35,086 nt of DNA, from positions 1-35,086 of the forward strand of contig CAZXTK010000004.1 in the NCBI GenBank assembly GCA_964643665.1, written 5' to 3'. Position 1 is the first letter of the stretch; every line of letters starts with the position of its first letter. Of this stretch, positions 3,886-23,147 are shown piece by piece. A program made the translations under genes and the position numbers. The DNA comes from an uncultured Campylobacterales bacterium. Lineage in GTDB: Bacteria; Campylobacterota; Campylobacteria; Campylobacterales; CAZXTK01. The notes under the pieces were generated by a model. The model was not told the origin of the DNA. It did not search any database and saw nothing but the letters and a program-made list of their open reading frames with translations.

Positions 3886-4917
<1,032 letters not shown>

Positions 4918-4974
4918 TCTTATATTTTAAATTTTTTCTTTAATTGCCAATCTATGCTTTTAGGGTAGATAATA

Positions 4975-4996
4975 AATAAGCCCTTAAAGGTTTATT
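4975..4996 (+). terminator. Possible hairpin downstream of ilvC
   Basis: AATAAGCC-CTTAAA-GGTTTATT stem with one G-U pair; no clear U tract. Confidence 0.25.
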
Positions 4997-5029
4997 GCAA
5001 AACATCAAAATAAACACAATTAAAACAAA

Positions 5030-5836
5030 TTGAATAAACTCCCAAAAACACATAGACTCATCAGCCATATAAAAGAGCTTGATGCTATGAAAAAATATCC
5101 AAAAGAGCTTTATTATATGGGCAATTTGGATCTTTTAAATAAACCAAAAATATCTATTGTCGGCACAAGAAAGCCAAGCCAATATACTAAAAATGCAATA
5201 GCATCTATAAGCTCATCTCTTAGCAATAGCGGAGTATGCATTGTAAGTGGTGGGGCAATGGGTGTAGATGCTATCGCTTCTTTAAATGCAGGTGCTAATA
5301 ATACTATTGTAGTTTTAGCATCCTCGCTTGATTATTTATATCCTGCAACGAATAAAAAACTACTCGCTCAAATTGCAAATGAAGGGCTAATTATTAGCCA
5401 GTTTGATATAAATCATAAGCCTCGTGCATATGATTTTGTAGCCAGAAATGAAATTGTAGTAGCCTTAGGCGAGGCTTTAATTGTCGGCGAAGCAGATCGT
5501 AAAAGCGGAACATTACATTCTGCATCGTATGCATTAAATATGCAAAAAGATATATATGCCCTGACTCATAGATTAAACGAGAGCAAAGGAACAAATGATC
5601 TTTTAGCAGACAATAAGGCTAAAGCAATTTATGATATAGATAATTTTATATCTAATATCTGCTTTATGTTTGGTATCAAAGATAAATCAAATAAAAAAAT
5701 AAATAGCATAGATGAGTTTTTTAAAACCACTCCAAGCTATGAAGATGCCCTTTTAAAATACCCAAATGAAGTTTTAGAATATGAAATGCAAGGCAAGATA
5801 AAAATACAAAACAATTGCATAATTTATCTAAAATAA
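5030..5836 (+). CDS. dprA: DNA-processing protein DprA
   Basis: SIVGTRK, IVSGGAMGVD, FVARNEIV and SGTLHSA motifs; ilvC-dprA neighbourhood as in Campylobacter. The TTG start is uncertain. Confidence 0.93.
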   Translation: MNKLPKTHRLISHIKELDAMKKYPKELYYMGNLDLLNKPKISIVGTRKPSQYTKNAIASISSSLSNSGVCIVSGGAMGVDAIASLNAGANNTIVVLASSLDYLYPATNKKLLAQIANEGLIISQFDINHKPRAYDFVARNEIVVALGEALIVGEADRKSGTLHSASYALNMQKDIYALTHRLNESKGTNDLLADNKAKAIYDIDNFISNICFMFGIKDKSNKKINSIDEFFKTTPSYEDALLKYPNEVLEYEMQGKIKIQNNCIIYLK

Positions 5837-5869
5837 GATATTATTGCATACAATTAAAAGGGATAAAGA

Positions 5870-6826
5870 GTGTTTGAGAATTTAGGAAACTTCGTTGCTT
5901 ATGATATTTTAGCTCTAAATCAAGATGCGCAAATTGGTAGCGTAGTTCAGTTTTTTGTAATGGATATTGCAAAAATATTTTTTATGTTAGCTATTATTAT
6001 CTACTTTATGGGGTTACTTAGGTTTAATATATCGCCTGAAAAGGTTAGAGATTATTTAAAAGGCAAATCAAAATTTGTATCTCAGATTTTAGCCATTATT
6101 TTAGGCTCTGTTACGCCTTTTTGCTCTTGCTCTTCTATACCTTTGTTTTTGGGGTTTTTAAGAGCGGGCATACCGCTTTGTGTGGTTTTTACTTTTTTGA
6201 TAGCAAGCCCTATGATAAATGAAATTGCCGTTATTATTTTATTTGGTATTGTTGGTTTTAAAGCGACAATAATGTTTGTTTTAGCAGGAGCTACCATAGC
6301 GTTTTTTGGTGGTATTATTATGCAAAAAGCCGGAGTTGAGAAATATATTCTAAACTACGAAGCTATCAAAAATGCAAAACCAATACGCAGTGCAAGCCCG
6401 CAAGAAAAAGCAAGCTTTGGTGTTATGCATAATTATGCAATAAATGAATCTAAACAAATAATAAAAGATATATACAAATGGGTGTTTTTGGGTGTTGGAG
6501 TTGGTGCATTGTTTCATGGATATTTTCCTAATGATTGGGCAACTAGCCTTAGTAGTGATAATATATTTGCAGTTCCTATGGCAGTAGCCGTTGGTGTGCC
6601 TCTTTATTCTGATGAAGTTGGTATAATACCATTAGTAGAGGCCATGCTTTTAAAAGGTGTTGCCACTGGAACAACTTTGGCGTTTATGATGAGTGTAGCA
6701 GCAATATCACTGCCAGAGCTGATGATTTTAAAACAAGCAATGCATTGGAAGGCTTTGGCTTTGTTTGTTGCCATAGTGTCAATTTCTATAATGATTGTAG
6801 GCGTATTGTTTAATTTATTTCTATAA
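5870..6826 (+). CDS. DUF318/ArsP-family permease
   Basis: Multiple hydrophobic segments; TPFCSCSSIPLF, ASPMINE, GVPLYS and SLPELMILK signatures. Confidence 0.85.
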   Translation: MFENLGNFVAYDILALNQDAQIGSVVQFFVMDIAKIFFMLAIIIYFMGLLRFNISPEKVRDYLKGKSKFVSQILAIILGSVTPFCSCSSIPLFLGFLRAGIPLCVVFTFLIASPMINEIAVIILFGIVGFKATIMFVLAGATIAFFGGIIMQKAGVEKYILNYEAIKNAKPIRSASPQEKASFGVMHNYAINESKQIIKDIYKWVFLGVGVGALFHGYFPNDWATSLSSDNIFAVPMAVAVGVPLYSDEVGIIPLVEAMLLKGVATGTTLAFMMSVAAISLPELMILKQAMHWKALALFVAIVSISIMIVGVLFNLFL

Positions 6827-6838
6827 GAGGAGAGTGAA

Positions 6839-12599: not shown

Positions 12600-12968
12600 T
12601 TATGCCTTTTTTGTTATTTTACTAAATACGCTTGGTAGTTTGTTAGGGCAATTTATTCTTAATTGTTTATTTACATTCATTCTGCCAAAAACAACCTCTA
12701 TGTCTTTTATTTTTACACCAAACTCACTCGCTAAAAATTTGACTAAATGATCTGTTGCTTTGCCGTTTATGGGTGCTGCGGCAACTGATATTTTGAGCTG
12801 ATTGCCAAAAGGCTTGCCTATTTTTGTAATTTTAGATGATGGTTTGCCTAGTATATTAAACACCAAAACATCATCTTCCCACCAAGCCCATTTGTTTTTG
12901 TCTTTGTATATGTGAGGCTTTTGCTCTTTTAGCTTTTTGCTATCTTGTTTGTTTTGATTTTTTGCCAA
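12600..12968 (-). CDS. DUF167 (YggU/UPF0235) family protein
   Basis: LKISVAAAPINGKATDHLVKFLASEFGV..IEVVFG...NKQLRI pattern. The TTG start is uncertain and has no clear RBS. Confidence 0.8.
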   Translation of the reverse strand: MAKNQNKQDSKKLKEQKPHIYKDKNKWAWWEDDVLVFNILGKPSSKITKIGKPFGNQLKISVAAAPINGKATDHLVKFLASEFGVKIKDIEVVFGRMNVNKQLRINCPNKLPSVFSKITKKA

Positions 12969-14915: not shown

Positions 14916-15266
14916 ATGCTAATTGAAGTAATGCAAGCTAAAATACACAGAGCAAAAGTAACACAGAGCAATCTTGATTATAATGGATCTATTGGTATAG
15001 ACGAAGATCTTTTAGAAGCTAGTGGGATTTTGCCTAATCAAAAAGTAGATGTTTTAAACATAAATAATGGTGAGAGATTTACAACATATGCAATAAAAGA
15101 GCCACGAGGTAGTGGAGTTATATGCATAAATGGTGCAGGGGCAAGAAAGGCTCAGGTTAATGATTTGATTATCATTGTAGCGTATGGGGCAATGCCGTAT
15201 GAGAGCGCTAAAAGCCATACACCTAAGGTTGTACAAGTAGATAGCAAAAACGCTATTATAAAATAA
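14916..15266 (+). CDS. panD: Aspartate 1-decarboxylase
   Basis: [16 protein letters not shown] (Gly-Ser autocleavage site), NGERFTTY and INGAGAR. Confidence 0.97.
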
Positions 15267-15309
15267 TCAGCATTAGCTCAATATAGCAAATATAGGCAAA
15301 TTAAATAGA

Positions 15310-15984
15310 TTATTTTATTATATCCCTAAAACTATCAAATACCTTATCGGGGTTGTTTTCTCTAATATCTTGCCCCATATTATAGCCGTAGGTTAAAACC
15401 CATACATCTATATTTGCATTTCTTGCTGTTTTGATATCAATAGATGAATCACCTACAAACAATAAATTACTTACATCCACACCCATTTGCTCAGATATAT
15501 AGCCCAGCCCCTTTGGGTTAGGTTTTTTAACATCTAATGTATCACCACTTACAATACAATCAAACATTTTTGTCATATCGTGAAGCTCCAATACTTTATT
15601 AGTAAATCTACCTTCTTTATTGGTCATTACGGCTAATTTCAACCCTTTTTCTCTTAGCTCTACTAGCACTTCTTTTACGCCATCATAGGGCATACCCTTT
15701 GTTGCACATCTTGCGTCGTAATGCTTTTTAAATATCGTATATCCATCATCAAAATAATCTGATTTTTCTATATCGCTTATGCTATCGCCCTTTATGTAAG
15801 ATAGAGCTTCCAAAAACAATGTTTTAGTCCCAAGTCCAATCCATGTACATACTAACTCATTTTTAATAGTTGGCAAGTTCATATCTTTTAGTGTATCGTT
15901 TAGCCCATCTGCTATCTCTTCACATGTTTGAATCAAAGTGCCATCTAAATCAAATACAATACCTTTGTAATCATATGTATTCAT
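15310..15984 (-). CDS. cbbZ: Phosphoglycolate phosphatase (HAD), CbbZ/Gph
   Basis: FDLDGTL, TNK, SGDTLDVKKPNP, VGDSSID and YGYN motifs; last gene of the CBB cluster. Confidence 0.88.
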   Translation of the reverse strand: MNTYDYKGIVFDLDGTLIQTCEEIADGLNDTLKDMNLPTIKNELVCTWIGLGTKTLFLEALSYIKGDSISDIEKSDYFDDGYTIFKKHYDARCATKGMPYDGVKEVLVELREKGLKLAVMTNKEGRFTNKVLELHDMTKMFDCIVSGDTLDVKKPNPKGLGYISEQMGVDVSNLLFVGDSSIDIKTARNANIDVWVLTYGYNMGQDIRENNPDKVFDSFRDIIK

Positions 15985-16012
15985 TTTTTATTCCTTTTAT
16001 TTGTTGTATTTT

Positions 16013-16702
16013 TTAGAGCGATTTTAGTTTTTCTATATTTATATCTGATAAATTATCAACAACCATAAATGCATTGCCAAAATCATGCGCCTTTGTGTAT
16101 ATTGTAGGTGTTATAATTGTCTTTATGTTTGCTTGAGTTGTGGCTTTTATTCCATTGATAGAATCCTCAAAAGCTATTGCTTGAGATGCATCTACGCCTA
16201 ATCTCTCCAAAGCTTGCAGATAAACTTGCGGATGTGGCTTTTTGATAGGTGCGCTATGCCCATCTTCTATAACATCAAAAAAACTCTCCCAATTAGAGCC
16301 TAGATTATAGCTTAGTAGGGCACTTATATTATCTGGCGTGGTAGTTGTTGCAATTGCAATTTTATATTTTTTATCATATGCTTCTTGTATTAGCTCTTCT
16401 ACACCATCTCGTAGTTTTAGAGCACCTTTTGCCACACAATCAGCATAGTTTTGCGTTTTTATAGCGTGAAGCTCTTTTATTAGCTCATCGCTTAAGCTCT
16501 CATTTATATTGCTAGCATGTTTTGCAATTCTCTCTTTGCCTCCTGATACTTCAAGAAGTCGTGTGTATAGCTCATCATTCCAGCACCATTTGTTGACACC
16601 TAATCCTTTTGCTCTAAATGCATAATTAAATGCCTCTAAGTGTAGTCTTTCTGTGTCCGCCAAAGTTCCATCTACATCAAAAATCAATGCTTTTAAATCC
16701 AT
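16013..16702 (-). CDS. cbbY: CbbY HAD phosphatase (xylulose-1,5-bisphosphate phosphatase family)
   Basis: ALIFDVDGTLADTE..HLEAFN, W-x-W...Y..LL.VSGGKER, IATTTTP, KKPHP and EDS motifs diagnostic of CbbY. Confidence 0.9.
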   Translation of the reverse strand: MDLKALIFDVDGTLADTERLHLEAFNYAFRAKGLGVNKWCWNDELYTRLLEVSGGKERIAKHASNINESLSDELIKELHAIKTQNYADCVAKGALKLRDGVEELIQEAYDKKYKIAIATTTTPDNISALLSYNLGSNWESFFDVIEDGHSAPIKKPHPQVYLQALERLGVDASQAIAFEDSINGIKATTQANIKTIITPTIYTKAHDFGNAFMVVDNLSDINIEKLKSL

Positions 16703-16728
16703 TTTATAGCCTTTACCTTGTTTAAATA

Positions 16729-16758
16729 ATTATAATAATCGTTATTTGAGATTGTCAA
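16729..16758 (-). promoter_or_regulatory. Consensus sigma70-type promoter for cbbY-cbbZ
   Basis: Minus strand reads TTGACA (16758-16753), 18 nt, TATAAT (16734-16729), 26 nt upstream of the cbbY start. Confidence 0.65.
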
Positions 16759-16827
16759 TATGAGCTTTATATGATTTATAATTAGTTAAAAAAGATTTCA
16801 TAGTGTTTTTGAGTTTTTGATGCAATT

Positions 16828-16857
16828 AAGCACCCAAGCCAAAAGGCTTAAATGCTT
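16828..16857 (-). terminator. Stem-loop after cbbA (terminator or mRNA-stabilising hairpin)
   Basis: Minus strand AAGCAUUUAAGCC-UUUU-GGCUUGGGUGCUU: 13-bp stem whose three U-G pairs form only on the minus-strand RNA; weak U tract. Confidence 0.65.
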
Positions 16858-16878
16858 GTTAAATTATTTAGATGCTAA

Positions 16879-17922
16879 TTATTTTTGGTTAGCATACATA
16901 TCTACATAAAATTGTAGAGATTTTGCTTTTATTTTGCTTGCTTGACCAGCACATCCAAATGCTTCAAATCTATCTTCACATATACCTTGAGCTGCTTCTT
17001 TTGCTGCTGCAAATAGTTTTCTTGGGTCAAACTCACCTGGGTTTTGTGTACAAAGTCTTCTAATAGCACCAGTCATTGCAAGTCTTAAATCTGTATCAAT
17101 ATTTACTTTTCTAGCACCATTTTTAATGCCTTCTACAATTTTATCAACTGGAACACCATAAGTATTTGCTATATCGCCACCATTTTCTCTGATGATTTTC
17201 AACCATTCTTGTGGAACAGAAGAAGAACCATGCATTACAATATGAGTGTTAGGTATTTTCTCAGAAATTGCTTTAATTCTTTTAATATCTAATACATCGT
17301 CACCTGGCTCTTTTGTAAATTTATATGCACCATGACTTGTTCCAATAGCAACAGCCAATGCATCAACACCAGTTTTCTTTACAAAATCCAAGGCTTCATC
17401 AGGGTCTGTAAGCATTTGATCGTGGCTTAATTTACCAACTGCACCAACACCATCTTCTTCACCAGCTTCACCAGTTTCTAACGAACCTAGACATCCTAAC
17501 TCTCCCTCAACACTCACACCAATAGCATGAGCCATATCTACTACTGTTTTTGTAACATCTACATTGTATTCATAACTTGCTGGAGTTTTACCATCTTCTC
17601 TTAGAGATCCGTCCATCATTACAGAAGTAAAACCACTTCTCATACTTTGTTGACAAACTGCTGGGCAAGAACCATGATCTTGATGTAAAACCACAGGAAT
17701 ATCTGGGTTGGCTTCAACAGCTGCCTCAACCATTTTTCTTAAAAATTCTTCTCCTGCATATTTTCTTGCACCTGCTGATGCTTGAAGTATTACAGGGCTA
17801 TCACATTTTTTAGCTGCATCCATAATAGAGTGAATTTGCTCCATATTGTTTATGTTAAACGCTGGAACACCATAAGAGTTTTCCGCTGCGTGGTCTAATA
17901 ATTGTTTTAATGAAATTAACAT
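16879..17922 (-). CDS. cbbA: Class II fructose/sedoheptulose-bisphosphate aldolase, Calvin-cycle subtype (CbbA)
   Basis: [65 protein letters not shown] and FDPRK. Confidence 0.95.
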
Positions 17923-17973
17923 TTTTTATCCTTTTATATTTATTTATTTAATTTGCTTTATGATTTTATATTT

Positions 17974-18000
17974 TTTTTGCTTACTTTTTGCTTACTTTTT
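17974..18000. repeat. 11-bp tandem duplication in the cbbT-cbbA spacer
   Basis: TTTTTGCTTAC twice, followed by TTTTT. Confidence 0.5.
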
Positions 18001-18010
18001 AAATATGCTT

Positions 18011-19987
18011 TTATTTTATTAACTTTTTAGCAGTAGTTACAATATTTTCAGTAGTAATGTTGAAGTGTTTATATAAATCATCTATTGGAGCACTTGCACC
18101 AAAAGTATCAGTCATACCAATAAACACATCACTTCTATCTAAGTATTGATGCCATCCAAAGCCAGTCATTGCTTCTATTGCTATTCTTGGAGCGTTTCCT
18201 AAAACATCATCTTGATATTCTTTGCTTTGAGCATTAAATTTTTCAAAACAAGGGAAAGACACAACCTCTGCTTTTATTCCGTCGTTTGCCAACTCTTGAG
18301 CTGATTTTAAAGCTAATTCAACTTCTGAACCACTAGCTAATAAAGTAATATCTGGGTTTTTAATATTTTTTAGTTTATAAGCACCCAAAGCTACTTTGTT
18401 TTCTTTTGTTTTTTTATCAAATCTAACAAGCGGTAAACCTTGTCTTGATAATGCCAATGCAGATGGAGTGTTTTCGCTCATTAAAGCACATTCCCAAGCC
18501 TCAGCAGTTTCTACAACATCACATGGTCTATAAACATTGATATTTGGTGTAGCTCTTAATGTTGCAACTTGCTCTATTGGTTGGTGAGTTGGACCATCCT
18601 CTCCTAAACCTATACTATCATGAGTTAATACATAAATAACTCTTTGTTTCATTAGAGCAGATAATCTAATAGAGCCTTTCATGAAGTCACTAAAGATTAA
18701 GAATGTTCCACCATAAGGAATAATACCACCATAAAGACTAAGACCATTCATCATAGCACCCATTACATGTTCTCTAATTCCGTAGTGTAAATATCTACCT
18801 TTGAAGTTTGTTCTTGTGATAGAGGCAGTATAAGGCGTTTTTGTTAAGTTAGAGCCTGTAAGGTCAGCACTACCGCCAACTATAAAGTTAAACTTTTTAG
18901 TAATAGCTTCAAGCGCCATTTGGCTTGCTTTTCTTGTTGCTACTTTTGTGTTGTTAGCAATTACTTCTTTTTTGAACGAGCTTATAACTCTATTAAGAGA
19001 GCTTAAATCTTTTTTGAAAGTTTCTTCAAATTTTTTCTTTTTAGGAGAGTTGTTTAGCTCATCATTCCAAGCATTATATGCCTTAATACCTCGTTCTTTT
19101 ACGCACTCCCAAGATTTGATAATATCATTTGGTATCTCAAATGGCTTATGGCTCCATCCTAGAGCTTTTCTTGTAGCATTTGCTTCTTCTTCGCCTAGTG
19201 GGGCACCGTGAACATCGTGAGTTCCAGCTAAGTTAGGTGAGCCAAAACCAATTTGTGTTTTACAAGCTATCAATGTTGGTTTTGTAGATTTTTTTGCTTT
19301 TATTATTGCTTCGTTAATTTCTTCGTAATTGTGTCCATCAATTTTGATTGTATTCCAATTAGACGCTTTAAATCTGGCAATTTGGTTTGTAGAAGTAGAA
19401 ACAGAAGTGTGACCATCGATTGAAATTTCATTATCATCCCAAAACAAAATTAATTTGCTTAGTTTCAGGTGTCCTGCCATATCTATGGCTTCTTGCGATA
19501 TACCTTCTGCCAAACAACCATCACCAGATATTACATAAGTGTAATGATCTACTAAGTTTTTGCCAAATCTAGTAGCAAAGTATTTTTGCGCAACTGCCAT
19601 ACCAACAGCAGTGCTAAGACCTTGACCTAATGGACCAGTTGTTGTCTCAACTCCTAATGTGTGACCATATTCTGGGTGACCCATAGTTACGGAGTTTAGT
19701 TGTCTGAAGTTTTTAATGTCCTCAATGCTTATATCTTTGTATCCAACTAAAAAGTTTAATGCATAATGTAGCATAGAACCATGTCCAGCCGATAGAATAA
19801 ATCTATCTCTGTTTGGCCATTTAGGATTATCTGGGTTTATGTTGATGTGCTCGCTAAAAAGAACAGTAGCAACATCTGCCATACCCATAGGCATACCAGG
19901 GTGACCCGAAGAAGCTTTATTTACAGCATCAATTGCCAAAAATCTAATAGCATTAGCCATATTTTTTAATTCATTTGTATTTTTCAT
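18011..19987 (-). CDS. cbbT: Transketolase (CbbT)
   Basis: SGHPGMPMG, RDRFILSAGHGS, GHPE, TTGPLGQG, GDGCL.EG and THDSIGLGEDGPTHQP. Confidence 0.97.
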   Translation of the reverse strand: MKNTNELKNMANAIRFLAIDAVNKASSGHPGMPMGMADVATVLFSEHININPDNPKWPNRDRFILSAGHGSMLHYALNFLVGYKDISIEDIKNFRQLNSVTMGHPEYGHTLGVETTTGPLGQGLSTAVGMAVAQKYFATRFGKNLVDHYTYVISGDGCLAEGISQEAIDMAGHLKLSKLILFWDDNEISIDGHTSVSTSTNQIARFKASNWNTIKIDGHNYEEINEAIIKAKKSTKPTLIACKTQIGFGSPNLAGTHDVHGAPLGEEEANATRKALGWSHKPFEIPNDIIKSWECVKERGIKAYNAWNDELNNSPKKKKFEETFKKDLSSLNRVISSFKKEVIANNTKVATRKASQMALEAITKKFNFIVGGSADLTGSNLTKTPYTASITRTNFKGRYLHYGIREHVMGAMMNGLSLYGGIIPYGGTFLIFSDFMKGSIRLSALMKQRVIYVLTHDSIGLGEDGPTHQPIEQVATLRATPNINVYRPCDVVETAEAWECALMSENTPSALALSRQGLPLVRFDKKTKENKVALGAYKLKNIKNPDITLLASGSEVELALKSAQELANDGIKAEVVSFPCFEKFNAQSKEYQDDVLGNAPRIAIEAMTGFGWHQYLDRSDVFIGMTDTFGASAPIDDLYKHFNITTENIVTTAKKLIK

Positions 19988-20023
19988 TTTTTTCCTTTGT
20001 ATTTTTTAGTTTTAGTTTAAACC

Positions 20024-20902
20024 CTAATCTCTAAGCTTTTTACTCTCAGATATCATTTTTGAAAGCATTGGAGTTAGTATAAGCTCTAATGCAAGTTCAA
20101 ATTTACCACCAGGAACAACCAATGTATTAGCATTTGTCATATAACTTTCATGTATTAAGCTAAGCAAATATGGGAAATCTACATTTTTAGCATCTTTAAA
20201 TGAGATGATAACGATACTCTCGCTAGGTCCTGGCACACTTGTTGCATCAAATGGGTATGAAGTATCTACTACTGGCGCTCTTTGGAAGTTTATATCTGTT
20301 AGTTTAAATTGAGGACAAATAACATTAACATAATCAGGCATTCTTCTTAATATTGTGTCTGTGATAGCCTCGTGAGAATATCCTCTTGCATTGTGATCTC
20401 TGTATATTTTTTGTATCCATTCAAGGTTTATTATAGGAACAATACCTAATTTTAAATCTACATATTGAGCTATATTTACACTATCAGTCCCAACAGCACC
20501 ATGCAAACCTTCGTAAAATAGCATATCGCTATCAGGGTCTAAATCTCTCCAAGGTGTAAAAGTCCCGCTAGGGCAACCGTATTGCTCTGCTTCTTCGTCG
20601 TTGTGTATGTAAGTTCTAGTTTTACCTGTTCCTGTTTTAGAATAGCTTGCCATAGTTTCTTCTAGCTTGTCTAGAATATTAGCATCTAAACCAAAGTGAG
20701 AAAAATGATGATTGCCTTTTTCTAACTCTTTTTGAGATTGTTCTTTCATAGCCGCTCTATCATATTTATGAAAAGCATCTCCTTCTATTTCTGCTGGTTT
20801 TATATTTTCTTTTTCGCAAATATTATGAAATATTTTTTGCGCAAATGAAGTTCCAGCTCCTGATGAGCCTGTTATTGACATTATTGGATGTTTTTTTGAC
20901 AT
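20024..20902 (-). CDS. cbbP: Phosphoribulokinase, proteobacterial type (CbbP/PrkB)
   Basis: MSKKHPI.SITGSSGAGTS P-loop, EGDAFH, FSHF, FYEGLHG, NLEWIQKI.RD, ILRRM and DINFQR. Aligns without gaps to my recollection of R. sphaeroides PRK. Confidence 0.97.
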   Translation of the reverse strand: MSKKHPIMSITGSSGAGTSFAQKIFHNICEKENIKPAEIEGDAFHKYDRAAMKEQSQKELEKGNHHFSHFGLDANILDKLEETMASYSKTGTGKTRTYIHNDEEAEQYGCPSGTFTPWRDLDPDSDMLFYEGLHGAVGTDSVNIAQYVDLKLGIVPIINLEWIQKIYRDHNARGYSHEAITDTILRRMPDYVNVICPQFKLTDINFQRAPVVDTSYPFDATSVPGPSESIVIISFKDAKNVDFPYLLSLIHESYMTNANTLVVPGGKFELALELILTPMLSKMISESKKLRD

Positions 20903-20931
20903 TTTCTACCTTTTTATTTGTGTTTTATTTA

Positions 20932-21891
20932 TTATTTGAAGTTTTTAAAATAATCTAAAATAACTTCTACTTCTTTTTTAGAACCAAATATCAAAGGAGT
21001 TCTTTGATGAATTGTTGTTGGCTCAATATCTAATATATCCTTATGACCATTAGTGGCTATACCACCAGCTTGCTCCACCATAAAAGCAACAGGATATGCC
21101 TCATAAATTAGTCTCAATCTTCCGTTTTCATAACCTTCTCTTTTATCGCTTGGATACAAGAAAACTCCACCTCTACTAAAGATTCTTGATAAATCAGCTA
21201 TCAAAGAAGCAATCCATCTCATATTGAAGTTTTCTCCTCTTTTACCATCTTTACCAGCCATTACATCTTTTATGTATTCGCTAACATTTTTATGCCAATG
21301 TCTTTGGTTAGATGCATTGATTGCAAATTCATTATAGCTTGGAGCTATTTTTAAATCTTTTTGTGCAAGTTCAAATTTGCCACTATTAGTGTTTAGTCTA
21401 TACATATGTGCACCCGCACCAGCTGTTACAAGAGCAGTTGTTTGTGGACCATACACAACAAGCATAGAAGCAACTTGCTCTCTACCACTGCTAAAAGGCA
21501 TACCATTATCGTTTTTTGCTTTTGTTTTAAAAATTGCAATAATTGTTCCAATTGAAACATTAGAAGCAATATTAGAAGAGCCATCAAGTGGGTCTATAGC
21601 AACAATATATGGTGCATCAGCGTTAATGTCTACTTCGCTTTCTTGCTCTTCTGAATAATAAGCACTTACTTGTTTGCTATCTTTACAAGCATCATAAAAT
21701 AAATCATCTGCTATTACATCAAGAGCTTTTTGAGAGTCACCATCTTGGTTTGTTTCGCCTATTTCGCCACCAAGTTCCCCGCCATTTCGTATTGTATCGC
21801 TTAGCTTTGCGGCCGCCGTACTCATTTTGCATATTAAATCATTTAATGATTCATCTACATTTTCTAATTTGTTTTTCGAACATATTCCCAT
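20932..21891 (-). CDS. cbbF: Class I fructose-1,6-bisphosphatase (CbbF; probably also SBPase)
   Basis: QKALDV, SEE, IDPLDGSSN, YGPQT, FNMRWIASL, GGVFLYP and GRLRLIYEA; first gene of the cluster. Confidence 0.95.
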   Translation of the reverse strand: MGICSKNKLENVDESLNDLICKMSTAAAKLSDTIRNGGELGGEIGETNQDGDSQKALDVIADDLFYDACKDSKQVSAYYSEEQESEVDINADAPYIVAIDPLDGSSNIASNVSIGTIIAIFKTKAKNDNGMPFSSGREQVASMLVVYGPQTTALVTAGAGAHMYRLNTNSGKFELAQKDLKIAPSYNEFAINASNQRHWHKNVSEYIKDVMAGKDGKRGENFNMRWIASLIADLSRIFSRGGVFLYPSDKREGYENGRLRLIYEAYPVAFMVEQAGGIATNGHKDILDIEPTTIHQRTPLIFGSKKEVEVILDYFKNFK

Positions 21892-22006
21892 TTATTATCC
21901 TTTGTTAATTTAGGTAGCCATAGTAACTAATATATGCTTTTAAGCCATAAAGCAAACACAATAATTCCTGTTATTTTTACATTAATGTTAGAAATACAGC
22001 TTTCCC

Positions 22007-22040
22007 ATTATCCAATATATTTGCTTAAAGTAAGCTTAAA
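22007..22040 (-). promoter_or_regulatory. Candidate host-type promoter of the cbb operon
   Basis: Minus strand TTTAAG-N5-TTTAAG-N11-GATAAT. The same AAG-N11-(-10) spacing occurs before the MFS gene, nifS and rpsF. Confidence 0.35.
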
Positions 22041-22277
22041 TTTGCATTCAAGTTGTAATTTATACATTTTTTATGGTATTTTTTAGCTTTTTATTTGCTT
22101 TTGGAACTCGTGTTGAAAGTTTAGCTTGTTATAATATGCAAATAAAACAAAATAGTTAAAACAAAATAAATTTAATATTTTTAATGTATTATTAAATAAA
22201 AAACAATTAGTGTATAATCCGTTATTGTTTGAAAAAGAGCAAAAAATAAGACTAAAAATAATCAATAAGGATAATAT

Positions 22278-23147
22278 TTGAGCAATATATGCAAACCATT
22301 AACAAAATGCTTGTTTCCTGTTGCAGGATATGGCACAAGATTTTTGCCAATAACAAAAACAATCTCAAAAGTTATGTTGCCAATAAACACTAAGCCAATA
22401 ATAGCCTATGGAGTAAATGAGGCATATAATAGTGGGTTTGATAGTATGAATTTTGTTACAAATCAACAAGATGTGCAAATAGAGAACTACTTTAAACCAT
22501 ACAAAGAATTAGAAAAACTGCTCAAAGATAAAAACAAGAAAAATGAATTAAATATGTTAGAAAGCATAAACAATATTTCAAATAATTGCAAATTCTCTTA
22601 TATTAAGCAAAAAAAAATACAAGGTTTAGGTGATGCTATTTTAAATGCCAAAGAGCTTGTAGGTAGCGAGGATTTTGGTGTTATTTTGGCTGATGATTTA
22701 TGTTTTAATGCAGATGATAGCGTGTTAAAACAAATGAAAGAAGTATATGAAAAATACCCTAATTATTGCATTGTGGCTGTAGAAGAGATCGAACTTAAAA
22801 ACTCGCATAAATACGGAATAGTATCTGGTAAGCAAATAGAAGATAATGTTTTTTTACTTGATGAGATGGTAGAAAAACCTTCAAGGCAAGAAGCACCGAG
22901 CAATCTTGCAATAATAGGCAGGTATATTTTAAAAAATGAGATTTTTGATGTGTTAGAGCATACAAAAATAGGAGTAGGTGGAGAACTGCAAATAACAGAT
23001 GCACTAAATTCGCTTGCAAAAAAACAAAAAGTATTAGCTTATAAATTTAAAGGTGTTAGATACGATTGTGGGTCAATAGATGGCTATATGAAGGCTCAAA
23101 ACTTTTTTTATAACCTATCAAAAGAGGCAAAAATTAGCAATGATTAA
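22278..23147 (+). CDS. galU: UTP--glucose-1-phosphate uridylyltransferase
   Basis: PVAGYGTRFLP.TK, GLGDAI, LADD, VEKP, GRYIL, GELQITDA and YDCG; TTG start after AAGGA. Confidence 0.93.
   Translation: MSNICKPLTKCLFPVAGYGTRFLPITKTISKVMLPINTKPIIAYGVNEAYNSGFDSMNFVTNQQDVQIENYFKPYKELEKLLKDKNKKNELNMLESINNISNNCKFSYIKQKKIQGLGDAILNAKELVGSEDFGVILADDLCFNADDSVLKQMKEVYEKYPNYCIVAVEEIELKNSHKYGIVSGKQIEDNVFLLDEMVEKPSRQEAPSNLAIIGRYILKNEIFDVLEHTKIGVGGELQITDALNSLAKKQKVLAYKFKGVRYDCGSIDGYMKAQNFFYNLSKEAKISND

What the first reader, a model, noticed from the sequence alone, without database searches (positions are those of the whole stretch)
15310..21891. Calvin-cycle (CBB) gene cluster cbbF-P-T-A-Y-Z inside a Campylobacterota chromosome
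Seen: six intact, co-oriented minus-strand ORFs (FBPase, PRK, transketolase, CbbA-type aldolase, CbbY, phosphoglycolate phosphatase) contiguous with panD and galU-msbA-pyrD, with housekeeping genes of Campylobacterota type on both sides. Established: PRK is one of the two CBB-specific enzymes, and Campylobacterota autotrophs canonically fix CO2 by the reverse TCA cycle. The exception I recall is 'Ca. Thiobarba' (Bathymodiolus epibiont) and a related vent bin (Assie et al. 2020, ISME J; from memory, verify). Inference: a horizontally acquired CBB module in a lineage that has switched or supplemented its carbon-fixation pathway. It could be Thiobarba itself or an independent case; my recollection is that the Thiobarba cluster includes rpe, which is absent here.
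Basis: partly seen in the sequence, partly recalled or inferred. Interest (0 to 1): 0.92.

Follow-up and report, generated by a model that had tools for sequence, protein, structure and literature searches.

The report
Independent Calvin cycle in vent Campylobacterales
A small-genome, sulfur-oxidising hydrothermal-vent bacterium from a group that normally fixes CO2 by the reverse TCA cycle instead carries a complete Calvin cycle built from foreign genes, with a form II RuBisCO, and it seems to have gained it separately from the one known precedent.

Summary
Six intact minus-strand genes (cbbF-P-T-A-Y-Z) sit at the stated coordinates between panD and galU-msbA-pyrD. The genome (G000: 1.21 Mb, 114 contigs, 96.6% complete) is the only member of its family among the Campylobacterales sampled. 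It also encodes form II RuBisCO (contig C41), CbbQ/CbbO (C5) and GAPDH, PGK, TPI, RPE and RpiB, which makes a full CBB enzyme set. ATP-citrate lyase and OorA were not found, although both searches found them in relatives. SoxB and a cbb3 oxidase are present. PRK and RuBisCO occur in 1 of 401 sampled genomes of the phylum (G000 itself). Across 26 families of the order they occur only in G000 and in G007, which matches published Ca. Thiobarba (form I RuBisCO, 2.2 Mb). G000 is not Thiobarba: its RuBisCO form differs, its transketolase is Alpha-type while G007's is Beta/Gamma-type (a shared clade is rejected, p-AU 8e-9), and RpoB rejects a sister relationship (p 0.019). PRK alone cannot reject a common origin. 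Codon usage is host-like, and an independent contig bridges the right junction. No expression data were available. Verdict: a second, probably independent replacement of rTCA by CBB in this phylum, and I found no description of it in the literature I searched.

The parts
20932..21891 (-). cbbF, class 1 fructose-1,6-bisphosphatase, presumably also acting on sedoheptulose bisphosphate; first gene of the cluster
   Evidence: NF006780 360 bits and NF006779 357 bits, both over their cut-offs. Best named relative 53% identical (alphaproteobacterial locus L016). Lies outside the 99* Beta-dominated clade that holds G007's enzyme. A second, very divergent FBPase lies on C20.
20024..20902 (-). cbbP, phosphoribulokinase (CBB-specific enzyme)
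   Evidence: NF011997 449 bits, model positions 1-288 of 290. Single copy in the genome. In 5.8 billion proteins there is one 95% cluster of 4 members, then nothing above 63%. Found in 1 of 401 genomes of the phylum.
18011..19987 (-). cbbT, transketolase; the only transketolase in the genome
   Evidence: TIGR00232 845 bits. Single copy. 58% identical to alphaproteobacterial cbbT against 40-50% to the TKTs of 40 relatives. Nested in an Alpha-type clade (97*, 100*). AU tests.
16879..17922 (-). cbbA, class II (CbbA-type) fructose/sedoheptulose-bisphosphate aldolase; the only aldolase found
   Evidence: TIGR01521 590 bits. Single copy by tblastn. 73% identical to the Variovorax locus L052. Placed in the Beta/Gamma-type clade at 100*, but an Alpha-side placement is not rejected (p-AU 0.19).
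16013..16702 (-). cbbY, a HAD phosphatase of the CbbY type; the solved relatives are, from my recollection, xylulose-1,5-bisphosphate phosphatases
   Evidence: Best solved structures are 'Protein CbbY' 4uar/4uat, E 1e-44, residues 3-221. 41-51% identical to HAD genes inside proteobacterial cbb loci. Below all NCBIfam equivalog cut-offs.
15310..15984 (-). cbbZ, phosphoglycolate phosphatase; last gene, convergent with panD
   Evidence: NF009695 213 bits (cut-off 225) and TIGR01449 165 bits (cut-off 180), so just below both cut-offs. 43% identical to the PGP in cbb locus L063 and 39% to G007's.
21892..22277 (.). 386-nt divergent intergenic region between cbbF and galU, the presumed promoter region of the cluster; no cbbR gene lies here
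   Evidence: Gap computed. Promoter-like hits here are no better than chance for the region (36 found against 35.9 in shuffles). No LysR-family protein was found anywhere in the genome.
16703..16878 (-). 176-nt gap between cbbA and cbbY holding a perfect sigma-70 consensus (TTGACA-18-TATAAT, 16758 to 16729); possible internal promoter for cbbY-cbbZ
   Evidence: The only 12-of-12 match in the scan. This is a consensus match only and shows no function.
14916..15266 (+). panD, left flank, 43 nt from the end of cbbZ
   Evidence: TIGR00223 156 bits. Host-typical codon usage.
22278..23147 (+). galU, right flank; its nearest named homologues are Campylobacterota
   Evidence: TIGR01099 324 bits. Named hits. 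One 8.8-kb Logan contig spans 19722-25000.

Best explanation
The window is a chromosomal contig of a deep-branching Campylobacterales bacterium from hydrothermal-vent metagenomes, the sole member of its family in the collection searched. It carries a horizontally acquired, fully ameliorated six-gene CBB module, cbbF-cbbP-cbbT-cbbA-cbbY-cbbZ. Together with a form II RuBisCO (cbbM, contig C41), a CbbQ/CbbO-type pair of the kind found beside RuBisCO genes (C5), and GAPDH, PGK, TPI, RPE and RpiB elsewhere, this gives the organism a complete Calvin-Benson-Bassham cycle. The two diagnostic rTCA enzymes sought, ATP-citrate lyase and 2-oxoglutarate:ferredoxin oxidoreductase, were not found. Inferred mechanism: Sox-based sulfur oxidation coupled to a cbb3 oxidase, and probably Nap, supplies ATP and reductant. 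PRK makes ribulose-1,5-bisphosphate and CbbM carboxylates it. The acquired TKT and FBA are the only copies in the genome, so they also serve central metabolism. CbbZ removes 2-phosphoglycolate from the oxygenase side reaction and CbbY removes the inhibitor xylulose-1,5-bisphosphate. No CbbR was found, so control is not of the classical LysR type. The module came from Pseudomonadota: cbbT is Alpha-type and cbbM groups with marine Gammaproteobacteria. It was most likely acquired independently of the Beta/Gamma-type, form I-based set in the Thiobarba-like lineage. Shown here: gene content, placement, foreign affinity and non-monophyly of TKT. Inferred: activity, autotrophy and the loss of an ancestral rTCA cycle.
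For: Genes and coordinates. Full enzyme set: cbbM NF010002 887 bits, positions 1-459 of 459, best solved match 'Form II RubisCO', KPKLG at 166 and DFIKNDE at 188, no small subunit. CbbQ (AAA_5 + CbbQ_C) plus a 743-aa VWA protein that is 44% identical to the ORF following cbbM-cbbQ in L081. GAPDH, PGK and TPI, RPE, RpiB. rTCA: ACL found in 0 of 1 (G000) but in 66 of 301 genomes of the phylum. OorA found in 3 of 3 rTCA relatives and not in G000 or G007. porGDAB is retained. Energy: SoxB 808 bits, ccoN 688 bits, a NapA fragment at a contig end. Rarity: PRK in 1 of 401 and RuBisCO in 1 of 401 genomes of the phylum. Across 26 families, PRK over its cut-off in 2 of 41 genomes and RuBisCO in 2 of 61, namely G000 and G007. 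Residency: codon-usage z-scores -0.45 to +1.01 and GC3 0.16-0.27 against a genome mean of 0.24. Contig tetranucleotide correlations 0.998, 0.995 and 0.993 against a median of 0.993. GalU's named hits are Campylobacterota. An 8.8-kb Logan contig spans 19722-25000, and a 90-95% relative in another run covers the FBPase-galU interval. A 27,198-bp JGI contig is listed for variant PGP and variant GalU. Foreign origin: TKT 58% to Alpha cbbT against 40-50% to 40 relatives. The CBB genes lie in the low tail of tetranucleotide fit. Independence from G007: G007 has rbcL-rbcS-hyp-cbbQ, form I. A shared TKT clade is rejected (dlnL 168, p-AU 8.4e-9). G000's TKT cannot be moved to the Beta/Gamma side (p 0.0016). 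G007's FBPase sits in a 99* Beta-dominated clade that excludes G000's. RpoB puts G000 with family f9 (98*) and rejects a G000+G007 sister pair (dlnL 20.5, p 0.019).
Against: No expression, protein or isotope data were available, so activity is inferred. The genome is a 114-contig MAG. The CBB genes lie on at least seven contigs (C4, C41, C5, C15, C17, C20, C58), which are linked only by binning, composition and flanking genes. No listed contig piece bridges the left junction at 15286-15365, and all four runs come from one study, one of which may be the source sample. Read support for C41 and C5 was not examined. For PRK, the tree that holds G000 and G007 together was 5.6 lnL better than the free quick tree (p-AU 0.60), so a shared origin of PRK is not excluded. 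All trees are 'quick' searches. G000 and G007 rows have deviant amino-acid composition. The reference set is the 80 loci most similar to G000's PRK, which biases sampling. The species tree rests on one gene and its rejection is moderate (p 0.019). The groups for the AU tests were defined after the trees were seen. ACL and OOR could lie in the missing ~3.4% of the genome. PGP and CbbY score below NCBIfam equivalog cut-offs. That G007 is Thiobarba is inferred from its match to the paper's description, because the tools give it no name.
Confidence: 0.75

Rival explanations
1. Single ancient acquisition: a common ancestor of this lineage and the Thiobarba-like lineage acquired PRK, or a whole cbbF-P-T block, once. 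Later replacements swapped TKT, FBPase and the RuBisCO form in one of the lineages.
For: The PRK tree constrained to hold G000, its 95% relative and G007 together is 5.6 lnL better than the free quick tree, p-AU 0.60. Both clusters begin cbbF-cbbP-cbbT. Both genomes lack OorA and keep POR. CbbQ is 63% identical between them.
Against: TKT monophyly is rejected (p 8.4e-9). G007's FBPase sits in a 99* clade that excludes G000's. The RuBisCO forms differ. RpoB rejects a sister relationship (p 0.019) and puts G000 with f9, where PRK and RuBisCO were found in 0 of 23 sampled genomes. The F-P-T order is the general proteobacterial order: FBPase immediately precedes PRK in 78 of the 80 named loci, and TKT is detected directly after PRK in most of them, so it says little. 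Both PRK branches are long and AT-biased, which favours artificial attraction.
Confidence: 0.1
2. Binning or assembly artefact: the CBB contigs, or the cluster within C4, belong to a co-occurring proteobacterium and not to the Campylobacterales genome.
For: The genome is a fragmented MAG of 114 contigs. The CBB genes' closest relatives are Pseudomonadota. The cluster, cbbM and cbbQO fall below the 5th percentile of tetranucleotide fit for same-sized windows. The left junction is not bridged by a listed piece.
Against: GC3 and synonymous codon usage of all seven genes match this 31% GC genome. Their best protein identities to any named proteobacterium are only 43-73%, apart from the highly conserved cbbM, so they are not fresh proteobacterial DNA. 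Each CBB locus is embedded among housekeeping genes on contigs whose whole-contig signature fits the bin. GalU beside the cluster is Campylobacterota-type. An independent 8.8-kb contig crosses the right junction, and a 90-95% relative shows the same adjacency. TKT and FBA are the only copies in a 96.6%-complete genome. Estimated contamination is 1.44%.
Confidence: 0.04
3. The genes are real and resident, but the pathway is not used for net autotrophy. PRK and form II RuBisCO might serve as a redox or electron sink or a pentose-salvage shunt in a mixotroph or host-dependent organism with a reduced genome.
For: From my recollection, form II RuBisCO acts as an electron sink in some phototrophic Alphaproteobacteria. 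The genome is small, 1.21 Mb, which would fit dependence on a host or community. No hydrogenase was found. No CbbR was found. There are no expression data.
Against: All enzymes of the cycle plus CbbQ/O, CbbY and CbbZ are intact and under host codon usage. A Sox system and a cbb3 oxidase provide a lithotrophic energy source. The alternative autotrophic pathway of the group was not found. In the published precedent the same gene set is highly expressed and gives a CBB isotope signature (PMC6908604, abstract).
Confidence: 0.15

Closest known systems
   Same: A Campylobacterales genome with a complete, horizontally acquired 'patchwork' CBB cycle. It has a cluster beginning FBPase-PRK-TKT with a PGP, has CbbQ, keeps POR, lacks OOR and has Sox sulfur oxidation. 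Its CBB genes are ameliorated to a ~30% GC genome.
   Different: Form II RuBisCO with no small subunit, against form I rbcL-rbcS-hyp-cbbQ. cbbM, cbbQO and the six-gene cluster are at three unlinked loci. The order is F-P-T-A-Y-Z with a CbbY and no rpe. TKT is Alpha-type, against Beta/Gamma-type. Protein identities to G007 are only 39-57%. The family is different and RpoB shows it is not a sister. The genome is 1.21 Mb against 2.2-2.3 Mb. The runs holding it are labelled hydrothermal vent metagenome, and no mussel-gill association is known.
Manus Basin Campylobacterota bin (Assie et al. [quoted passage not shown]
   Same: A vent-derived, low-GC Campylobacterota MAG that carries RuBisCO. In the paper it branches near Arcobacteraceae. 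G000 groups with family f9, whose name the tools do not give.
   Different: That bin has form I RuBisCO plus CbbQ with a full rTCA cycle, and the section read mentions no PRK cluster. G000 has form II, PRK and the full cycle, and no ACL or OorA was found.
Proteobacterial cbb operons, for example the cbbF-P-T-(G)-A-M...Y-Z arrangement in Rhodobacteraceae-type loci L044 and L076, and cbbF-P-T-A-L-S in Bradyrhizobium and Ancylobacter loci
   Same: Same gene order cbbF-cbbP-cbbT-cbbA, with CbbY and PGP genes in the same locus. The TKT nests among these Alpha-type sequences.
   Different: No divergent cbbR, and no LysR protein in the genome at all. No RuBisCO gene in the cluster. cbbM groups with marine Gammaproteobacteria and not with L044 or L076 (72-73% identity). 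All genes are recoded to a 31% GC genome.

Membership tests
Complete Calvin-Benson-Bassham cycle | Form I or II RuBisCO | tested here: met
   cbbM on C41: NF010002 887 bits, positions 1-459 of 459. Best solved match is 'Form II RubisCO'. KPKLG and DFIKNDE motifs are present (the motifs are recalled).
Complete Calvin-Benson-Bassham cycle | Phosphoribulokinase | tested here: met
   NF011997 449 bits, over the 362 cut-off, full length.
Complete Calvin-Benson-Bassham cycle | The remaining enzymes: PGK, GAPDH, TPI, FBA, FBPase/SBPase, TKT, RPE and RPI | tested here: met
   SBPase activity of the FBPase and SBP aldolase activity of CbbA are assumed, not tested.
Complete Calvin-Benson-Bassham cycle | The pathway is expressed and fixes carbon | not testable with these tools
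No RNA, protein or isotope data were examined.
Candidatus Thiobarba / Thiobarbaceae | Form I RuBisCO in an rbcL-rbcS-hypothetical-cbbQ cluster | tested here: not met
   G000 has form II and no small subunit. G007 has the form I cluster.
Candidatus Thiobarba / Thiobarbaceae | Same family-level lineage as the Thiobarba-like genome | tested here: not met
   Different family codes, f1 against f8. RpoB places G000 with f9 (98*) and rejects a G000+G007 pair, p-AU 0.019. This rests on one marker gene.
Candidatus Thiobarba / Thiobarbaceae | CBB accessory cluster of Betaproteobacteria-like genes that includes rpe | tested here: not met
   TKT is Alpha-type and a shared clade with G007 is rejected. rpe lies elsewhere, on C17. 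Figures S4 and S5 of the paper, which show the physical gene order, could not be seen.
Proteobacterial cbb operon (CbbR regulon) | Gene order cbbF-cbbP-cbbT-cbbA | tested here: met
   Same order as in many of the 80 named loci.
Proteobacterial cbb operon (CbbR regulon) | Divergently transcribed LysR-type regulator CbbR | tested here: not met
   galU lies upstream of the cluster. PF03466 gives 0 matches in G000 and rings in 10 of 14 control genomes. The genome is 96.6% complete.
CbbY (xylulose-1,5-bisphosphate phosphatase, HAD family) | Closest relatives are characterised CbbY proteins, not other HAD phosphatases | tested here: met
   4uar/4uat 'Protein CbbY', 156 and 154 bits over residues 3-221, and a plant homologue at 111 bits, against beta-PGM at about 60 bits. 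Substrate-specificity residues were not examined.
Phosphoglycolate phosphatase (CbbZ/Gph) | Score over an equivalog cut-off | tested here: inconclusive
   NF009695 213 bits against a cut-off of 225, and TIGR01449 165.5 against 180. The best-scoring families are all PGP, and the gene sits in a cbb cluster.
CbbQ/CbbO RuBisCO activase | An AAA+ CbbQ with the CbbQ_C domain, followed by a ~750-aa protein with a C-terminal VWA domain | tested here: met
   The pair is 63% and 44% identical to the pair that directly follows cbbM in L081. A NorQ/NorD role was not formally excluded.

The most novel reading that the evidence does not exclude
Replacement of the reverse TCA cycle by a Calvin cycle has happened at least twice, convergently, in Campylobacterales. 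This vent lineage is a previously undescribed, family-level, genome-reduced sulfur oxidiser (1.2 Mb). It assembled its own version from different donors: an Alpha-type cbbFPT block and a gammaproteobacterial form II RuBisCO with its own CbbQ/O. It dispersed these over three loci, let the foreign TKT and aldolase take over central metabolism, and runs the pathway without any CbbR-type regulator. If so, pathway replacement is a recurrent, selectable route in this phylum and not a one-off of mussel epibionts. It would also mean that cbbM sequences at vents cannot be assumed to be proteobacterial.
Probability: 0.6. Interest if true: 0.8.

Novelty: new variant of a known kind. Interest (0 to 1): 0.72.

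Why it matters
From what I recall and from the papers read, Campylobacterota are the textbook rTCA autotrophs of sulfidic habitats. Carbon-isotope budgets and marker-gene surveys at vents (aclB read as Campylobacteria, cbbM and cbbL read as Proteobacteria) rest on that assignment. One exception, the mussel epibiont Thiobarba, has been known since 2019, and a 2026 global survey preprint still cites only that case. A second lineage that did the same thing with different parts would make wholesale pathway replacement a repeatable evolutionary outcome. It would also provide a natural replicate for asking what drives the switch, such as oxygen exposure or genome streamlining. It shows which genes are minimally needed: no CbbR, no carboxysome genes looked for, and foreign TKT and FBA replacing native ones. 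It would also warn that some form II RuBisCO at vents belongs to Campylobacterota. The 1.2 Mb genome is additionally the smallest among the relatives sampled, so it is of interest as a minimal CBB chemolithoautotroph.

Tried and rejected
1. SUP05 or vesicomyid-symbiont Gammaproteobacterium. I considered this because the genome is 1.2 Mb, 31% GC and has cbbM. I rejected it on the GalU named hits, the ACL distribution in the phylum, the Helicobacter-type four-subunit POR, fused rpoBC frames in relatives and the RpoB tree.

2. First ACL search. No control genome rang, so it was uninformative. I repeated it over the phylum, which validated it.

3. The search for related loci with PRK. It returned no Campylobacterota.

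4. PRK phylogeny as a test of independent origin. The free quick tree separated G000 and G007, but the AU test did not reject their union, and the constrained tree was in fact better. I dropped PRK as evidence for independence.

5. 'The cluster is itself a mosaic' (Alpha-type TKT next to Beta-type FBA). The FBA tree gives 100* for a Beta/Gamma placement, but forcing FBA to the Alpha side costs only 6.9 lnL (p 0.19). I keep this as a suggestion only.

6. G007 ORF downstream of PGP (L088:19369-19950). I assumed it was the aldolase, but it matches no NCBIfam family. I make no claim about G007's FBA position.

7. cbbM donor as Thiotrichales specifically. The 90% cluster includes Leucothrix and Cocleimonas, but there is a broad 84-88% plateau that also holds Granulosicoccus, Gallionella and Sideroxydans. 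Only a marine-gammaproteobacterial clade is supported (96*).

8. Mobile-element traces. There are 0 tRNAs and no meaningful flanking repeats. No integrase or transposase appeared among the window ORFs scanned. Promoter-like sites are at chance level.

9. Left junction. No listed contig piece covers 15286-15365 in any of the 4 runs. The output says that a hole proves nothing, so I do not count it for or against.

10. Two recalled motif patterns did not match: a strict Walker-A pattern for PRK and a C-terminal GGG.[FH]GH pattern for RuBisCO. I draw no conclusion from this, because the patterns came from memory.

11. Not used: structure prediction, fold search, complex prediction, the protein-atlas search, the search of protein representatives, the RNA tools and search_dna_similar. 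Nothing in the question needed them.

12. Supplements of Assie et al. (Figs S4-S5, Tables S2 and S6) are closed. They may hold the exact Thiobarba gene order and identities.

Full report
OBSERVATION. The window is the whole of contig C4 of a 1,209,327-base, 114-contig genome (G000), estimated 96.63% complete and 1.44% contaminated. One search lists six minus-strand ORFs at exactly the coordinates in the finding. HMM searches identify them as follows:
- class 1 FBPase (NF006780, 360 bits, cut-off 358)
- phosphoribulokinase (NF011997, 449 bits, cut-off 362)
- transketolase (TIGR00232, 845 bits)
- CbbA-type class II aldolase (TIGR01521, 590 bits)
- a HAD phosphatase
- a phosphoglycolate phosphatase that falls just short of its equivalog cut-offs (NF009695, 213 against 225)

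The HAD protein's best solved-structure relatives are the 'Protein CbbY' entries (E 1e-44, 156 bits, against about 60 bits for beta-phosphoglucomutases), so the cbbY label holds. Intergenic gaps are 29, 36, 88, 176 and 28 nt. The flanks are panD on one side and galU, an MsbA-like exporter and pyrD on the other. The rest of the window is housekeeping: rpsF, ssb, ilvC, dprA, dxs, dapA, pgsA, NifS/NifU, rmuC and others. The cluster and one DUF167 gene are the only minus-strand genes among about 30 plus-strand genes.

WHOSE GENOME.
(i) In the GTDB-based genome collection G000 is the only member of its family and genus. All relatives offered are 'same order', spread over 25 other families with genomes of 1.3-3.0 Mb.
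(ii) ATP-citrate lyase (PF16114) occurs in 66 of 301 sampled genomes of the phylum. It is all-or-none by family: 23/23, 12/12, 7/7 and 6/6 in some, and 0/90 and 0/124 in two large families of ~1.6-Mb genomes. From my knowledge this is the pattern of Campylobacterota, with Sulfurovum- and Sulfurimonas-type autotrophs set against Helicobacter and Campylobacter.
(iii) Five relatives, including one from the 0/90 family, have a fused rpoB-rpoC frame of ~2,900 aa. I recall this as a Helicobacter/Wolinella trait.
(iv) Of 120 listed homologues of GalU, the gene next to the cluster, 5 carry an organism or metagenome label. Four are Campylobacterota and one is 'hydrothermal vent metagenome'. The best identity outside the query's own cluster is 59%.
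(v) G000 has a four-subunit POR with three subunits over the pyruvate:flavodoxin oxidoreductase equivalog cut-offs.
(vi) Relative G007 matches the published description of Ca. Thiobarba (see below).
All four public runs that hold the region belong to one study and are labelled hydrothermal vent metagenome.

IS THE CLUSTER REALLY PART OF THIS CHROMOSOME? Synonymous codon usage of all six genes and of cbbM lies within about one SD of the genome's 1,066 ORFs (z from -0.45 to +1.01). GC3 is 0.16-0.27 against 0.241 +/- 0.041. Whole-contig tetranucleotide correlation with the rest of the bin is 0.998 (C4), 0.995 (C41) and 0.993 (C5), against a median of 0.993 for 65 contigs of 5 kb or more. In Logan's independent contigs of run X1, which may be the source sample, one 8,807-nt contig spans 19722-25000. 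It therefore crosses from PRK and FBPase into galU and msbA. The listed X1 pieces have depths mostly of 10-17. In X4, from another sample, a 90-95% identical relative has a contig covering 21752-22206 and indels reported up to 22283, so it has the same FBPase-galU neighbourhood. A 27,198-bp JGI contig is listed for variant copies of both PGP and GalU, the genes at opposite ends of the cluster. No listed piece bridges the left junction at 15286-15365, so that junction remains to be checked. There is no tRNA, flanking repeat, integrase or transposase.

THE REST OF THE PATHWAY. Contig C41 carries a 459-aa form II RuBisCO: NF010002 887 bits, positions 1-459 of 459; best solved match 'Form II RubisCO'; KPKLG at 166 and DFIKNDE at 188. 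It lies next to uvrC, der and pyrE. No small subunit was found. Contig C5 carries CbbQ (AAA_5 + CbbQ_C) followed by a 743-aa VWA protein, among yidC, mnmE and smpB. This pair is 63% and 44% identical to the pair that directly follows cbbM in the named locus L081. GAPDH, PGK and TPI are on C15, RPE on C17 and RpiB on C58. A complete CBB enzyme set is therefore encoded.

The cluster's TKT and aldolase are the only copies detectable in the genome. A second, very divergent FBPase (NF006784, 407 bits) lies on C20.

ACL was not found in G000. OorA (NF007206) is over its cut-off in 3 of 3 ACL-bearing relatives and was not found in G000 or G007. porGDAB is kept.

SoxB (808 bits), ccoN (688 bits) and a NapA fragment cut by a contig end are present. 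No [NiFe] hydrogenase was found. No LysR-family protein, and hence no CbbR, was found in the genome.

HOW RARE. PRK over its cut-off occurs in 1 of 401 sampled genomes of the phylum, and RuBisCO in 1 of 401. In both cases that genome is G000 itself. That sample drew on 14 families. In samples spanning 26 families, PRK over its cut-off occurs in 2 of 41 genomes and RuBisCO in 2 of 61, namely G000 and G007. Among 5.8 billion proteins, the PRK has one close cluster (95% identity, 4 member sequences) and nothing else above 63%.

RELATION TO THIOBARBA. I read the abstract and the sections on assemblies, carbon fixation, free-living bins and gene origins of Assie et al. (PMC6908604). They describe Thiobarba as 2.2-2.3 Mb and 30% GC. 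It has form I rbcL-rbcS-hypothetical-cbbQ, and a second cluster of FBPase, PRK, TKT, PGP, FBA and RPE with Betaproteobacteria-like affinities. It has POR but not OOR. G007 is 2.2 Mb, 270 contigs and 96% complete. It has rbcL (NF003252, 797 bits), rbcS (PF00101, 130 bits), a hypothetical ORF and cbbQ. It has FBPase-PRK-TKT-PGP in that order, and POR without OorA. I therefore take G007 as Thiobarba or close kin, which is an inference. G000 differs in RuBisCO form, genome size, family code, gene order and content. Its proteins are only 44% (FBPase), 57% (PRK), 49% (TKT) and 39% (PGP) identical to G007's. For each of these four, that is less than to the best proteobacterial homologue: 53, 62, 58 and 43%.

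PHYLOGENIES. All are IQ-TREE 'quick' searches under LG+C20 PMSF. The references are the named cbb loci after removing near-duplicates: 50 of 80 kept for PRK, 33 of 56 for TKT, 43 of 57 for FBPase and 27 of 57 for FBA.
- TKT (36 rows). G000 nests in an Alphaproteobacteria clade (97*, 100*) beside Ancylobacter, Rhizobium and Sphingomonadales sequences. G007 nests in the Beta/Gamma clade (100*) as sister to a Pseudomonadales sequence (95*). Holding G000 and G007 together costs 168 lnL, p-AU 8.4e-9. Moving G000's TKT to the Beta/Gamma side costs 40 lnL, p 0.0016 (that group was named after the tree was seen).
- FBPase (47 rows). G007 is inside a 99* Beta-dominated clade of 14 rows. G000 lies outside it on an unresolved long branch.
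- PRK (53 rows). The free tree separates them, but the constrained tree is 5.6 lnL better, p-AU 0.60. PRK is undecided.
- FBA (29 rows). G000 falls in the Beta/Gamma-type clade (100*, nearest Variovorax, 73% identity). An Alpha-side placement is not rejected (p 0.19). A mosaic within the cluster is therefore only suggested.
- cbbM (32 rows). G000 and a 98% relative fall in a 96* clade of 15 rows whose named members are all marine Gammaproteobacteria (Granulosicoccus, Leucothrix, Cocleimonas). This clade is apart from a 99* Gallionellales clade.
- RpoB (31 rows, one or two per family; G000's two fragments merged in the alignment). G000 groups with family f9 (98*, 68% identity). G007 is a separate long branch. 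A G000+G007 pair costs 20.5 lnL, p-AU 0.019. In f9, PRK and RuBisCO were found in 0 of 23 sampled genomes.
The rows for G000 and G007 have deviant, AT-driven amino-acid composition. That bias would tend to pull the two together, so their separation on TKT is conservative, while their non-rejection on PRK is weak evidence.

FOREIGNNESS. G000's TKT is 40-50% identical to the TKTs of all 40 relatives, against 58% to Alpha cbbT. The flank gene GalU finds Campylobacterota first. Despite the host-like codon usage, the cluster (0.968), cbbM (0.791) and cbbQO (0.929) lie below the 5th percentile of tetranucleotide fit for random windows of the same size (0.974, 0.897 and 0.947). That is what an old, ameliorated transfer of conserved genes would leave.

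MECHANISM (inferred). Reduced sulfur is oxidised by Sox, with oxygen (cbb3 oxidase) or nitrate (Nap) as acceptor. PRK and CbbM run the carboxylation arm, and CbbQ/O keeps CbbM free of inhibitors. CbbY and CbbZ clear xylulose-1,5-bisphosphate and 2-phosphoglycolate. The acquired TKT, aldolase and FBPase do the regeneration steps and, for TKT and aldolase, all other cellular needs. Transcription probably starts in the 386-nt cbbF-galU spacer. A perfect sigma-70 consensus in the 176-nt cbbA-cbbY gap may drive cbbYZ separately, although this is only a pattern match and promoter-like sites overall are at chance level. Control is not by CbbR.

LITERATURE. Five searches and passages from seven further papers turned up CBB-bearing Campylobacteria only as Thiobarba-type mussel epibionts with form I RuBisCO (PMC6908604; PMC9841196, passages). 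A 2026 global survey preprint cites only that case (10.64898/2026.09.02.748891, passages). I found no description of a form II RuBisCO Campylobacterota.

VERDICT. The organism is not Thiobarba. It is best read as a second, probably independent switch from rTCA to CBB in Campylobacterales, using form II RuBisCO in a 1.2-Mb genome. The kind of event is already known, and this instance is a new variant. The main gaps are expression or isotope evidence, read-level confirmation of the left junction and of the C41 and C5 loci, and a multi-marker species tree.

Noticed in passing
whole genome G000 (window = C4): At 1.21 Mb and 96.6% completeness, G000 is smaller than every relative of at least 90% completeness listed (1.3-3.0 Mb). 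It may be one of the smallest chemolithoautotroph genomes in the phylum. Whether it is free-living or host-attached is unknown.
   Followed up: partly
window 15310-21891 against the rest of the window: The CBB cluster and one DUF167 gene (12600-12968) are the only minus-strand genes among about 30 plus-strand genes. GC skew flips sign exactly over the cluster. This fits an inserted block that lies against the prevailing gene orientation.
   Followed up: no
G000:C41 (L002) 4391-6838: About 2.5 kb from cbbM, just beyond uvrC, lies a 586-aa protein with two DUF1538 halves (UmpA/UmpB-like) followed by a P-II-like 119-aa protein and a 108-aa ORF with no family. A transporter paired with a P-II-like protein near RuBisCO could be an inorganic-carbon or ion uptake system. 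This was not tested.
   Followed up: no
G000:C5 (L100) 4422-5975: A SulP/STAS transporter with a weak BicA-like score (148 bits, cut-off 880) lies about 2 kb upstream of cbbQ-cbbO. A 213-aa MORN-repeat protein sits directly before cbbQ.
   Followed up: no
relatives G001, G007, G020, G021, G025: rpoB lies in an open frame of ~2,880-2,920 aa, which means a fused rpoB-rpoC, in five relatives from five family codes including the Thiobarba-like G007. G000's rpoB is split over contigs C76 and C89 and its frame ends soon after rpoB, so it looks unfused.
   Followed up: partly
whole genome G000: No LysR-family substrate-binding domain (PF03466) was found anywhere in the genome, while 10 of 14 control genomes ring. 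This is unusual even for a small genome.
   Followed up: no
window 16729-16758, minus strand: A perfect TTGACA-18-TATAAT lies in the 176-nt cbbA-cbbY gap. It is the only 12-of-12 match in the 7.6-kb scan.
   Followed up: no
runs X2-X4 and proteins P0001, P0140, P0143, P0285: At least one further member of the lineage exists in public data. One NCBI 6,523-bp contig carries PRK (95%), TKT (97%) and FBA (99%). One ENA 18,395-bp contig carries cbbM (98%). Run X4 holds pieces of the cluster at 90-95% nucleotide identity.
   Followed up: partly
G002 (family f3), C10:47673-49586: Apart from G007, G002 has the TKT most similar to G000's among the relatives (50% identity, 632 bits, against 43-47% for most). 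It has only a weak PRK-family hit (40 bits) and no RuBisCO. I did not examine whether its TKT is also foreign.
   Followed up: no
protein P0286: An unnamed NCBI protein on a 43-kb contig is 90% identical to G000's cbbM and branches just below the G000 pair in the cbbM tree. It could be the donor lineage or another recipient.
   Followed up: no
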